Assembly: GCA_050014495.1 (NCBI GenBank) | Contig: JBEKDF010000004.1 | Coordinates: 32,001-96,000 of the forward strand | Length of the DNA: 64,000 nt | Direction: 5' to 3' | Source of the DNA: Candidatus Bathyarchaeia archaeon | GTDB lineage: Archaea; Thermoproteota; Bathyarchaeia; TCS64 | Shown: positions 15,001 through 18,000 of the stretch, piece by piece | Position numbering within the stretch: position 1 is the first letter of the stretch | How the letters are laid out: each line of letters starts with the position of its first letter | Position numbers: made by a program

Positions 15001-18000
15001 CGATGTCGTTGAGGTACTCAGGAACAGGTTCATGCCGAGTGTCACAGTCTTAGAGATTAAGATAGGTACTGAACAGATGCAGTCCGAGGAGCGTAGCACG
15101 CCTTCAAACGTCAGCACAATCGAGATCGTGCTCAAGCCTTAAAGGCGCAAACCATTAGGCTCTCGCGGCGGCTCCCCCGGATACCCGGAGGACCACTGAG
15201 TGCAAACGCAACTATGTGAGTTCTGTTTAAAGAGCGGCATGCTATGCTCGAAGTGCCAGACGAAGATCAAGACAGGCGCCGTAACAAACGAGTACATGGA
15301 AGTGGCTAAGAAGCTCATTAGCTACGAGGGCCAGAACCAGTTCCTTCAAACCGTCACTCTGGATAACGTGGTAGATGCAGGGGGTTTCCTCGTACTAGTT
15401 GTTGGGAAGGGTGACTCCGCTAAATTCAACGTTAACCCTAAACCTATTCGCGATCTCGGTGACGCACTGAACAAGAGGGTTGTCGTAATTGAGGCTGGAA
15501 TGAACGACAGGAAGTTCCTTGAGGACCTATTCTCAGGGCAGCAGATCGTCACAATCAATATTATTTGGCTCCCTGATGGGAGCACGGAGACTCGGGTCGT
15601 ACTAGGAGCACGGGGAGCTAAGCGGTTCAGCAAGAAGCGTATCCAGGCTTTAGTCGATATTGCGAAGAAGGTTCGCAAGATGGACCTTCGCGTAGAGTAT
15701 GCCTACTAGAAGCTCGAAAGTATTTTTATACCCACCTCTCACCTAGCTGGGTAGCTTACAAGTGGGTTCTTTAATGTTCGACAGGGTATACATCGAGGAA
15801 GCTAAGAAAAGGCAGGACGAACAAGTCACCATTGCGGGGTGGGTCGTTCGTACGAGGGACTTAGCGAAGATCAAGTTCATCGTGATGCGTGATAGGACCG
15901 GCGAGATCCAGGTCACCGTGAAGGACCTTAACTTATACCCTAAGGAGGGTTTCGGTAGGGAGGATGTCATCGCTGTCACTGGTAAAGCTGAGCAGAGTAA
16001 GATCGCTAATGCCGGTATGGAGTTTTTCCCTGATAAGATTGAGGTCGTGAATAAGTCGAGGCAGCCCCTCCCTGTGGATATCACTGAGACAAGCCAGAGT
16101 GAGCTGGAGACGAGGCTGAATTGGCGTTTCTTAGACTTTAGGGCACCGCAGACCCGCGCAATATTTACTATTCAGAATAGGCTGCTCTCAACTTTCCGCA
16201 GTTGGTTGACGGAGAACTGCTATGTTGAGATACAGCCACCCTGTATCATTGCCTCAGCGTCAGAGGGCGGCGCAGATCTATTCAGTCTGCCCTATTTCGA
16301 GAAGAAGGCGTTTCTCGCTCAGAGTCCCCAACTCTACAAACAGATGTGCGCAATCAGCTTCGAGAAGGTCTTCACAGTAACCCCAATCTGGAGGGCTGAA
16401 AAATTCAATACCCCCACCCACCTAAACGAGATTAGACAGATGGATATTGAGCAGGCTTTTGCTGATGACGAGATTGTTATGAAGGTACTCGAAAAGGTGC
16501 TTATCCACATGCTGAGGGATGTGAAGGAACACTGCCCAGAGGAACTCAAGACCCTTAATAGGGAGTTGCTCATCCCAGAGCTGCCATTCAAGCGTGTCAC
16601 ATATACAAAGGCGATCGAGATGCTTCAGAAGGCGGGGGAGCAGATCAAATGGGGGGACGACTTTACGAAGCCTCAGGAAAGGAAGATGATGGAGCTCGTG
16701 GGGGAACAGGCTTTTTTCCTAAAGGATTGGCCCGCAGCACAGAAGGCGTTCTATTCTATGCCCTACGTGGATAACCCGGAGATTGTCCATGCATTCGACT
16801 GCATCTATGGTGGCATTGAGATAAGTAGCGGCACGCAGCGCATTCACATCCCCGAGTTACTCAGGGAGAGGATAAGTAATAAGGGGCTGCACCCAGAGAA
16901 CTTCGAGAGCTATATCGAGGCTTTCGCTTATGGTGCTCCCCCTCACGCGGGGTGGAGCATCGGGCTGGAAAGGCTGACAATGATCGTGACTGGGAAGGAC
17001 AACATCAGGGAGTGCTGTATGTTCCCGCGTGACAGGGAGAGGCTCATCCCATGAGCAGACAGAGCCAGTTCGAGTACAAGATGTGCATAGTAATACGCAC
17101 TGACCTGAAGATGAGTGTCGGTAAGATGATAGCCCAGGCTTGCCATGCAGCCGTCGACTGCTCGGAGAAAGCAAAGCAGGAGAACCACGCGGGTTGGCGG
17201 AAGTGGCGAGACGAGGGAGCGAAGAAGGTTGCCCTCCAAGTCGACTCGCAGGAGGAGCTTGAGGAGCTAGCTGATAAAGCGGATAATCTCGACATCGTCT
17301 ACACAGTTATTCAAGATCGGGGTCTCACCGAGGTCCCACCAGGAAGCATTACCGCCCTAGGTCTCGGACCCGAGAGGAACGATAAGCTTGACAAGATAAC
17401 AGGCAACCTCCCGTTAATGAAGTGAGGATTAACTAATATCAATTTTTGAATAAATCCATTCTATTGAGGATATTTCGAGAATTAGGAAAGTCTATTTTAA
17501 GGGCCTTGGAACCCGCAGGCGGGGCACCTGTAGGTGCGACCGAAGAGCCGACATTTCTCGCAGCGCCAAATTGTGACGGCACCGCAGTTGGGGCAGCTCA
17601 TCTTGACAGCTTTCTCCTCGGGTGCAACCTTCCTACCACAGGAGATGCAAGTTGACATACTTATCAGCCCACATACAACCTTGGTTCGATATTTAAATGT
17701 TCACTAGGTTGCGTAATTCGGCGAAGGCGAGTCTCCCAAGTCCACTGACCATTGCCCTCATGAGTCTTGGCTCGGAGAGCGCTCGTTTTATGACTTCTCC
17801 TTGAAGGTCCATATCCCCGCCCGCGACTATTTCTTCAACCACGTTATTGAGCCCAGAATCGTTGAAGACGCGAAGGAGCCTATTCATCCTTTCATCCGAT
17901 ATTCTATCAACGAGGTTGCGTAGAGTCTGCATGCTCCTGAACTCTGCCCCGTAGAGTCTCCTCCATTCATCTTCATAATGTACAAGTGATCTCTCCGAGA

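What a model noticed while it worked through the whole genome (the two positions that open the first line are those of the whole stretch)
17051..17658. No elongation factor aEF1-beta in any genome of order TCS64
The guanine-nucleotide exchange factor of EF1-alpha (aEF1-beta) is missing. Its usual neighbour, the HVO_2753-type zinc ribbon (g00620), ends 71 nt from pth2 with no room for it. All 79 genomes of the order lack it while most other Bathyarchaeia have it, so EF1-alpha must exchange GDP unaided or through another factor.
Evidence so far: PF00736: 0/79 genomes of the order, 0/23 of the high-quality ones; 49/56 other Bathyarchaeia and 4/4 archaeal controls. Directly beside the zinc ribbon in 2 of 4 fetched relatives; tblastn of 4 relatives' proteins on genome.fa finds nothing at E<0.01. 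The equally short L37e is found by the same search. Zpr1, another EF1-alpha partner, is also absent (0/12 order, 15/49 others; call 204).
(Added by a program. Inside this text positions count along the whole contig: contig position 32,001 is position 1 of the stretch shown here. "Call 12" and the like, gene names such as g00115 and contig names such as C1 are that model's own, and its searches are not shown. The text may have been shortened before it was handed on; [...] marks where a part breaks off. The agent that wrote the report below was given it as the finding of a first reader that could run no searches.)

Follow-up and report, generated by a model that had tools for sequence, protein, structure and literature searches.

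The report
Archaea lacking elongation-factor recharging protein
Two orders of uncultured sediment archaea appear to have lost the small protein that reloads translation factor EF1-alpha with GTP, a protein that is essential in tested archaea and yeasts, so they must run protein synthesis without it.

Summary
The loss is real and wider than reported. aEF1-beta (PF00736) passes its cut-off in 0 of 79 genomes of the window's order. The shorter neighbouring zinc finger is found in 68 of 79. Controls keep aEF1-beta: 332 of 349 other Bathyarchaeia, 219 of 220 in a phylum-wide sample and 71 of 71 small DPANN-type genomes. A second order also lacks it (0 of 9). The common layout is zinc finger, aEF1-beta, cdc48. 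In six genomes of the second order and two singleton orders the finger abuts cdc48, a clean deletion scar. In the window's order both flanks hold other genes. The gene is essential in Sulfolobus, Methanococcus and two yeasts. EF1-alpha is single-copy with intact GTP motifs and no yeast bypass substitutions. Its G domain is unusually conserved, while domains II and III drift progressively. Best reading: spontaneous GDP release suffices and the drift followed the loss (0.55). Stalk-assisted exchange or an unrelated substitute remain open. The mechanism is inferred, not shown.

The parts
17497..17658 (-). HVO_2753-type zinc-finger microprotein (53 aa); the usual upstream neighbour of aEF1-beta, kept after the loss
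   Evidence: PF07754 70.3 bits over cut-off 33.2; NF011481 over cut-off, NF041909 under; directly upstream of aEF1-beta in 19 of 30 positive loci; present in 68 of 79 order genomes
17426..17496 (.). 71-nt AT-rich spacer between two convergent genes, where aEF1-beta stands in many relatives; no room for an ~88-codon gene
   Evidence: Sequence; stops in the finger's frame; no promoter- or terminator-like consensus found (bacterial-type scans)
17051..17425 (+). Peptidyl-tRNA hydrolase Pth2, convergent with the zinc finger
   Evidence: PF01981 E 7.3e-42; faces the finger within about 30-220 nt in 5 of 30 order loci, L048, L054, L055, L058, L066
15762..17054 (+). Class II tRNA synthetase (Asp/Asn type) upstream of pth2
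   Evidence: PF00152 and PF01336
17693..18895 (-). Geranylgeranyl-reductase-like flavoprotein directly upstream of the finger; this order is conserved in most loci of the order
   Evidence: PF01494 over cut-off, PF22578 at 27.8 bits against 27; synteny
18919..19896 (-). FKBP26-type peptidyl-prolyl isomerase upstream of the reductase
   Evidence: PF22199, PF00254, PF18046

Best explanation
The aEF1-beta gene was deleted in the ancestor of the window's order, and once more (or in a shared ancestor) in a second Bathyarchaeia order. It is not hidden or relocated. The single canonical aEF1-alpha still delivers aminoacyl-tRNA and reloads by spontaneous GDP release followed by GTP binding, at a rate slow-growing sediment cells can tolerate. 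No change to the nucleotide pocket was needed, because the earliest-branching factor-free genomes have a near-canonical EF1-alpha. Afterwards domain II, where the factor docks, and domain III drifted under relaxed constraint, most strongly in the window's family. Shown: absence of the gene, empty ancestral sites, single intact EF1-alpha, domain-biased drift. Inferred: spontaneous exchange, slow growth as the enabling condition, and drift as a consequence rather than a cause.
For: Absence: 0 of 79 and 0 of 9, against 332 of 349, 219 of 220, 106 of 111 and 71 of 71. Scar: the finger-to-cdc48 distance is 79-245 nt in 8 factor-free genomes against 364-519 nt (one 1236) in 16 positive loci. cdc48 follows egsA directly in 23 of 25 order loci from all four families. 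One TIGR00483 gene in each of 24 order genomes. G1 GHVDHGKST in 24 of 24 and NKMD in 24 of 24; the positions of yeast bypass mutations T22, A112 and R164 are unchanged. Departures from columns >=90% conserved: order rows G 35, II 155, III 169, against positives G 114, II 54, III 66. Basal G007 shows 0/1/2, family f2 0/2/5 and G000 1/12/10. 5 of 20 eEF1B-contact positions named by Atkinson 2014 differ in the order, against 33 of 431 overall (p 0.013). Intrinsic GDP off-rate is 0.13/s for eEF1A against 0.002/s for EF-Tu (Table 1 of PMC5084732), so the EF1A family starts much nearer to GEF independence.
Against: aEF1-beta is essential in S. islandicus, M. maripaludis and two yeasts (PMC6249222 supplements), so an unmodified EF1-alpha is not enough in those cells. 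No G-domain substitution is shared by all factor-free lineages; second-order rows differ at only 4-6 conserved columns. Most order-typical residues also occur in archaeal EF1-alpha structures from organisms with the factor: P36 and K246 in the 3wy9/7csl chain, Y124 in 1jny, N241 and Y285 in 3vmf. G111 keeps the factor yet has 14 of 51 domain-II departures. The p value of 0.013 ignores that surface sites vary more and that rows are related. No archaeal off-rate or growth rate was seen. None of the genomes I examined was shown to be closed.
Confidence: 0.55

Rival explanations
1. An unrelated protein has taken over exchange: the C-terminal domain of aIF2-alpha (structurally like eEF1B-alpha, suggested for EFL in PMC3938643), a stand-alone Lrp/AsnC-type domain, the retained zinc finger, or an unknown order-specific protein.
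For: aIF2-alpha is present in 5 of 5 factor-free genomes. Stand-alone Lrp/AsnC C-terminal domains top the aEF1-beta profile ranking among 633 small ORFs shared by G000 and G011, at 4-9 bits. The finger is kept in 68 of 79. Directional changes fixed early in the order (T246R/K 24 of 24, I333F/V 24 of 24, E327A/S 23 of 24) could mark a new partner surface.
Against: The Lrp/AsnC-type domains are also present in 3 of 3 aEF1-beta-positive genomes. No G000 or G011 ORF has the [EDK]P[IVL][AG][FY]G[LIMV] hairpin. The finger is deletable in Haloferax with a motility phenotype (PMC10716476 passages). The second order shows none of the domain II changes except T246R in G091. No extra gene sits beside tuf.
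Confidence: 0.17
2. The ribosome itself, through the aP1 stalk, promotes exchange on EF1-alpha, and the domain III changes retune stalk binding.
For: Two of seven aP1-contact residues reported for A. pernix EF1A (R329, F331; PMC6791870 passages) map, by my alignment, to G000 R331 and F333. These are R in 22 of 24 and F in 23 of 24 order rows, against Q in 36 of 38 and I in 35 of 38 positives. aP1 with a normal C-terminus is present in G000, G007 and G086. Ribosome-accelerated exchange is reported for RF3.
Against: Enrichment is not significant (p 0.09). A. pernix has the same R and F while keeping aEF1-beta (the latter recalled). The stalk site is about 25 A from the nucleotide. I333F is absent from the second order.
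Confidence: 0.15
3. aEF1-beta is present but has diverged beyond profile detection and moved to a new locus.
For: It is a short protein of about 88 aa, and the genome search uses a loose first look. Exhaustive scoring was done only on G000 and on 2.1 of 2.3 Mb of G011. No library of predicted cellular structures was available.
Against: The same search finds divergent copies down to 28 bits in another phylum. Copies in Bathyarchaeia score E 1e-7 to 1e-20. Basal order members and the second order have barely changed EF1-alpha, so a partner diverged beyond recognition is unlikely. Weak hits fall in different unrelated proteins. Both ancestral sites are empty.
Confidence: 0.08
4. The gene is systematically lost in assembly or binning.
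For: All genomes are draft bins (58-98% complete). The apparent single contig G011 is about 90 pieces joined by N spacers.
Against: The finger is recovered in 68 of 79. Scar junctions lie inside contigs. Among the 80 best metagenome contigs carrying aEF1-beta, the flanking cdc48 is nearest to the order in 0 of 65 and the finger in 0 of 66; 4 of 66 fingers are marginally nearest to the second order.
Confidence: 0.03
5. An EFL-like paralogue that needs no exchange factor has replaced EF1-alpha (the eukaryotic ratchet).
For: G000 has a SelB-like protein without a G1 motif. Two f12 genomes carry divergent EF1-alpha paralogues with altered P-loops.
Against: The SelB-like protein was not found with this query in 5 of 5 other factor-free genomes. 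The 24 order genomes have one TIGR00483 match each. EF1-alpha is intact, not decaying. G091 of the second order has no such paralogue at E<=1e-60.
Confidence: 0.02

Closest known systems
EFL-bearing eukaryotes that lost eEF1B-alpha (Atkinson et al. 2014, PMC3938643; passages and whole Results section read)
   Same: Loss of the EF1B exchange factor from whole lineages; changes at some of the same contact positions (D35, D250, G255 equivalents)
   Different: There the factor is lost because a paralogue replaces EF1A. Here the canonical single EF1-alpha stays. [quoted passage not shown]
Budding-yeast mitochondrial EF-Tu without EF-Ts (Chiron et al. 2005; only its title seen, in a reference list; the rest recalled)
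   Same: A canonical tRNA-delivering GTPase working without its dedicated exchange factor
   Different: Bacterial-type EF-Tu/EF-Ts in an organelle, not the sole cellular system of a free-living cell
Tremblaya princeps lacking EF-Ts (bioRxiv 10.1101/042267, one passage)
   Same: Natural loss of the elongation exchange factor with EF-Tu retained
   Different: A degenerate nested endosymbiont that has lost many translation genes; here genomes of 0.7-3.1 Mb keep aIF2-alpha, aP1 and Pth2 where tested
Yeast eEF1A mutants that bypass eEF1B-alpha (R164K, T22S, A112T, A117V, as listed in PMC3938643; the primary paper was not held)
   Same: Show that EF1A can function without the factor
   Different: T22, A112 and R164 equivalents are unchanged in 24 of 24 order rows; the A117 position is S in all order and positive rows
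Self-recharging translational GTPases SelB, eRF3, eIF5B (Table 1 of PMC5084732)
   Same: What the best explanation says EF1-alpha works like
   Different: Their GDP off-rates are 2-15/s; no rate is known for the protein here

Membership tests
aEF1-beta (PF00736 / TIGR00489) in the window's order | Profile match over the curated cut-off | tested here: not met
   0 of 79; custom profiles negative
aEF1-beta (PF00736 / TIGR00489) in the window's order | Conserved EEP-x-AFGL hairpin (invariant E36, E37, P38, A40, G42, L43 in alignment A3) | tested here: not met
   No ORF with the relaxed motif in G000 or in 2.1 Mb of G011
aEF1-beta (PF00736 / TIGR00489) in the window's order | Position between the zinc finger and cdc48 | tested here: not met
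   30 finger loci and 25 cdc48 loci of the order hold no such ORF (best E 2.9 and 8)
aEF1-beta (PF00736 / TIGR00489) in the window's order | Ferredoxin-like fold found by structure comparison over the whole proteome | not testable with these tools
   Two folds per session and no predicted-structure library of cellular proteins; profile ranking used as a proxy
Canonical aEF1-alpha (TIGR00483) | Score over cut-off 540 bits, single copy | tested here: met
   630 bits in G000; one match in each of 24 order genomes
Canonical aEF1-alpha (TIGR00483) | Intact G1-G5 motifs | tested here: met
   GHVDHGKST, RERG[LIV]TI, D[AS]PGHR, NKMD, SGW in 24 of 24
EFL-type replacement system | A paralogue present across the lineage that replaces EF1A | tested here: not met
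EFL-type replacement system | EF1A lost or decaying | tested here: not met
   At most 4 of 94 conserved G-domain columns changed in any order row
EFL-type replacement system | Replacement of the DIALWK loop, DCHTAHI and MR contact segments | tested here: not met
   DL at 75-76, H350, H352, T353, M417 and G418 kept in 24 of 24; only positions 36, 79, 241, 246 and 351 shift
GEF-independent EF-Tu/EF1A (as in budding-yeast mitochondria) | No gene for the dedicated exchange factor | tested here: met
GEF-independent EF-Tu/EF1A (as in budding-yeast mitochondria) | Fast intrinsic GDP release sufficient for elongation | not testable with these tools
   Needs stopped-flow kinetics on purified protein
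HVO_2753-like zinc finger | PF07754 match and four CxxC-type motifs | tested here: met
   70.3 bits against cut-off 33.2; C4, C7, C22, C25, C36, C45, C48 invariant in 30 rows, C33 at least 90%; the narrower NF041909 cut-off is not reached, 55.3 against 80

The most novel reading that the evidence does not exclude
These are the first free-living cells with a canonical EF1A and no EF1B. The factor was lost up to four times independently within Bathyarchaeia, and the fixed domain II/III changes reveal a different recharging route, either allosteric self-exchange through the domain I-III interface or exchange driven by the ribosomal stalk or an unknown factor. This would give a natural, expressible protein for testing why EF1A needs a GEF at all.
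Probability: 0.3. Interest if true: 0.85.

Novelty: new variant of a known kind. Interest (0 to 1): 0.7.

Why it matters
aEF1-beta is treated as universal in archaea (PMC3938643), is essential in both archaea screened (PMC6249222 supplements) and survives in 71 of 71 reduced DPANN-type genomes. Whole orders without it break that rule. They also supply what the EFL study lacked: natural factor-free EF1A proteins with close factor-dependent relatives and a graded series of changes. That makes a standing question directly testable by expressing a few proteins and measuring GDP release. It also warns against using aEF1-beta as a completeness marker for these orders.

Tried and rejected
Complex prediction of G000 EF1-alpha with the zinc finger (GDP and Zn riding along): verdict 'no answer', score 0.00; not used as evidence either way.

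Convergence with EFL at P36 and K/R246 looked striking but was rejected as diagnostic, because the 3wy9/7csl chain has both.

A published table lists aEF1-beta as 'none' in three Thermoplasmatota columns, which I read by position as two Methanomassiliicoccales and a marine group II genome. Five of 5 genomes reached through a Methanomassiliicoccales-type 16S pattern have it, as do 106 of 111 of their phylum. I therefore treat those blanks as annotation misses; the three listed genomes themselves were not identified and tested.

Single versus repeated loss is unresolved. Unrooted, the second order sits next to the window's order. With five outgroups it joins 13 positive rows at 87/92 (53 of 76 non-paralogue rows used). 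The AU test of one clade gives p 0.13.

G011 was read as a possible closed genome but is a spacer-joined scaffold, and about 0.2 Mb of it was not read. The Zpr1 co-loss was rejected. The tblastn hit at E 3.9e-4 was rejected. The SelB-like protein and the Lrp/AsnC domains were rejected as clade-specific substitutes.

Literature searches found no report of archaeal aEF1-beta loss. The library omits most subscription papers, including the aEF1A-aEF1B structure paper and the yeast suppressor paper, and bioRxiv supplements were not seen. One review table leaves the archaeal exchange-factor cell blank (PMC8807479); I take this as an omission. Earlier scan notes held nothing.

Full report
Observation. 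The window holds pth2 at 17051-17425 (+) and an HVO_2753-type zinc finger at 17497-17658 (-), convergent and 71 nt apart. A geranylgeranyl-reductase-like gene and an FKBP gene lie upstream of the finger, and a class II tRNA synthetase lies upstream of pth2. The spacer has stops in the finger's frame. The genome G000 is 95.95% complete and 7.5% contaminated, and PF00736 finds nothing in it at E<=10.

Absence across the order. PF00736 passes its cut-off in 0 of 79 genomes and 0 of 23 high-quality ones; 6 of 79 have partial hits of 13-17 bits. An alignment of 23 Bathyarchaeia aEF1-beta proteins gives partial hits in 9 of 79 (E 0.011-1). The ten hit frames I read out from the two lists (four and six) are unrelated proteins. 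HMMER without filters on 69,851 G000 ORFs gave best E 3.8 with a 30-sequence profile and 3.3 with a 60-sequence profile. Reversed ORFs gave 0.52, and six-frame read-through gave 2.2. On 2.1 of 2.3 Mb of G011 the best E was 0.85. Neither genome has the conserved hairpin motif. The best tblastn hit of 60 queries in G000 (E 3.9e-4) lies in a 383-aa oxidoreductase alpha-type subunit.

Controls. The 53-aa finger passes its cut-off in 68 of 79 order genomes. In a class sample of 401 genomes at least 85% complete, all 52 order members miss aEF1-beta and 332 of the other 349 have it. A phylum sample at least 92% complete has it in 219 of 220 besides G000 (35 of these are Bathyarchaeia also). The phylum of a Methanomassiliicoccales-type genome has it in 106 of 111, down to 28 bits. 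The phylum of a genome titled Woesearchaeota has it in 71 of 71, with genomes as small as 0.5 Mb. Asgard, Halobacteriota and Methanobacteriota were not sampled beyond the controls.

The loss is wider. Of the 17 misses outside the order, 11 are scattered in families that mostly keep the gene. Three belong to one further order, which is 0 of 9 (58-92% complete). G079 and G081 are each the sole genome of their order, and G094 is alone in its family in this sample. I inferred which handles missed from the tallies and the gaps in numbering.

Synteny gives positive evidence. In 30 positive loci the finger is directly upstream of aEF1-beta in 19, and cdc48 lies within 250 nt downstream in 25. In six genomes of the second order and in G079 and G081, the finger is followed by cdc48 at 79-245 nt, against 364-519 nt (one 1236) in 16 positive loci. 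This is a clean excision, though relocation cannot be excluded for the two single genomes. In the window's order the pair is broken. Thirty finger loci are followed by varied genes (best profile E 2.9), and cdc48 follows glycerol-1-phosphate dehydrogenase directly in 23 of 25 loci from all four families (best E 8). Among the 80 best metagenome contigs with aEF1-beta, no flanking cdc48 (0 of 65) or finger (0 of 66) is nearest to the order's copies. Four fingers are marginally nearest to the second order, and the scan was truncated. Whether the losses are one event or several is unresolved (AU p 0.13).

Why it is surprising. Atkinson et al. [quoted passage not shown] Supplement rows of Zhang et al. 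2018 (PMC6249222) mark M164_1968 essential (log2FC -8.73), and essential also in M. maripaludis, S. cerevisiae and S. pombe. Blanks in their presence table did not hold up as a precedent when related genomes were searched. Ten literature searches found no report of this loss, but the library lacks most subscription papers.

EF1-alpha. Each of 24 order genomes has one TIGR00483 gene; in G000 it stands with rps10, and no extra gene is adjacent. G1-G5 are intact in 24 of 24, and the positions of the yeast bypass mutations T22, A112 and R164 are unchanged. Against columns at least 90% conserved in 38 positive rows, the order's departures total 35 in the G domain, 155 in domain II and 169 in domain III. 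For positives, with their own family left out, the totals are 114, 54 and 66. The drift is graded: G007 0/1/2, family f2 0/2/5, G000 1/12/10. Second-order rows show 1-3/1/2. Five of 20 contact positions named by Atkinson differ in the order, against 33 of 431 overall (p 0.013).

Against over-reading the drift: rows are related, surface sites vary more, and G111 keeps the factor yet has 14 of 51 domain-II departures. Solved archaeal EF1-alpha chains already carry P36 and K246 (3wy9/7csl, the entry that also holds aEF1-beta), Y124 (1jny), and N241 and Y285 (3vmf). So no single residue explains independence, and none is shared by all factor-free lineages.

Mechanism. The simplest account is that intrinsic GDP release is enough. 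The EF1A family releases GDP about 65 times faster than EF-Tu (0.13/s against 0.002/s; Table 1 of PMC5084732), and the earliest factor-free branches needed almost no change. Slow growth in sediment is my assumed enabling condition and was not measured. The domain II/III drift then follows as relaxed constraint. I give this 0.55.

An unrelated substitute gets 0.17. aIF2-alpha is present in 5 of 5. Lrp/AsnC-type domains rank top among 633 shared small ORFs but occur in 3 of 3 positives too. The finger is dispensable in Haloferax (PMC10716476 passages). Stalk-assisted exchange gets 0.15. R331 and F333 map to reported aP1 contacts (PMC6791870 passages; mapping) and are order-typical (p 0.09), and aP1 is intact. 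A hidden divergent copy gets 0.08, a binning artefact 0.03 and an EFL-like replacement 0.02. Zpr1 is absent in 4 of 4 order genomes but present in factor-free G086, so it is not coupled.

Verdict. The absence is about 0.9 likely to be a true gene loss. It works like the GEF-free EF-Tu of budding-yeast mitochondria (title seen) or of Tremblaya (one passage). It is not an EFL system, and it is apparently the first such case for a canonical EF1A in free-living cells. New variant of a known kind; interest 0.70, held back because the evidence is an absence in draft genomes and the mechanism is untested.

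Noticed in passing
L359:155-1102 (-) = G000:C31: SelB-like protein with domains II/III but no G1 motif (resembles aSelBL, a recalled name); not found with this query in 10 other Bathyarchaeia genomes.
   Followed up: partly
L144:99-1433 (-), L145:34-1305 (-): Divergent EF1-alpha paralogues in two f12 genomes (factor-free second order) with altered P-loops, GDAGHGKST and GEAWHGKST.
   Followed up: partly
L142, L143 (G331, G377): A second EF1-alpha/CysN-like GTPase with GHKDHGKST; six aEF1-beta-positive genomes have such a weaker second match.
   Followed up: no
L141 (G111): EF1-alpha with 14 of 51 conserved domain-II columns changed although the genome keeps aEF1-beta.
   Followed up: no
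L362-L466 (G011): Listed as one contig but holds 91 runs of N in the 2.1 Mb read, so it is a joined scaffold; five alba-like genes.
   Followed up: yes
G000:C9:84187-85416 (-): A second, shorter near-copy of the cdc48 N-terminal part, next to transposase-like ORFs near a contig end; possible strain mixing or mobile duplication.
   Followed up: no
L049, L059, L060, L062, L063, L065: In 6 of 30 order loci the finger is followed on the same strand by a membrane ORF with an REC[ST]xIHV motif, resembling an exosortase/archaeosortase (recalled label).
   Followed up: no
L360, L361 and other G000 contigs: At least seven stand-alone Lrp/AsnC C-terminal-domain proteins of 79-102 aa in G000.
   Followed up: partly
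window 14867-17425 (+): Cluster of alba, a NusA-like protein (NF005013 below cut-off), the tRNA synthetase and pth2; same order in G011.
   Followed up: partly
L489, L522, L532, L537: Metagenome contigs with aEF1-beta whose zinc finger is marginally nearest to the second factor-free order (72-75% identity); may be its factor-bearing relatives.
   Followed up: no
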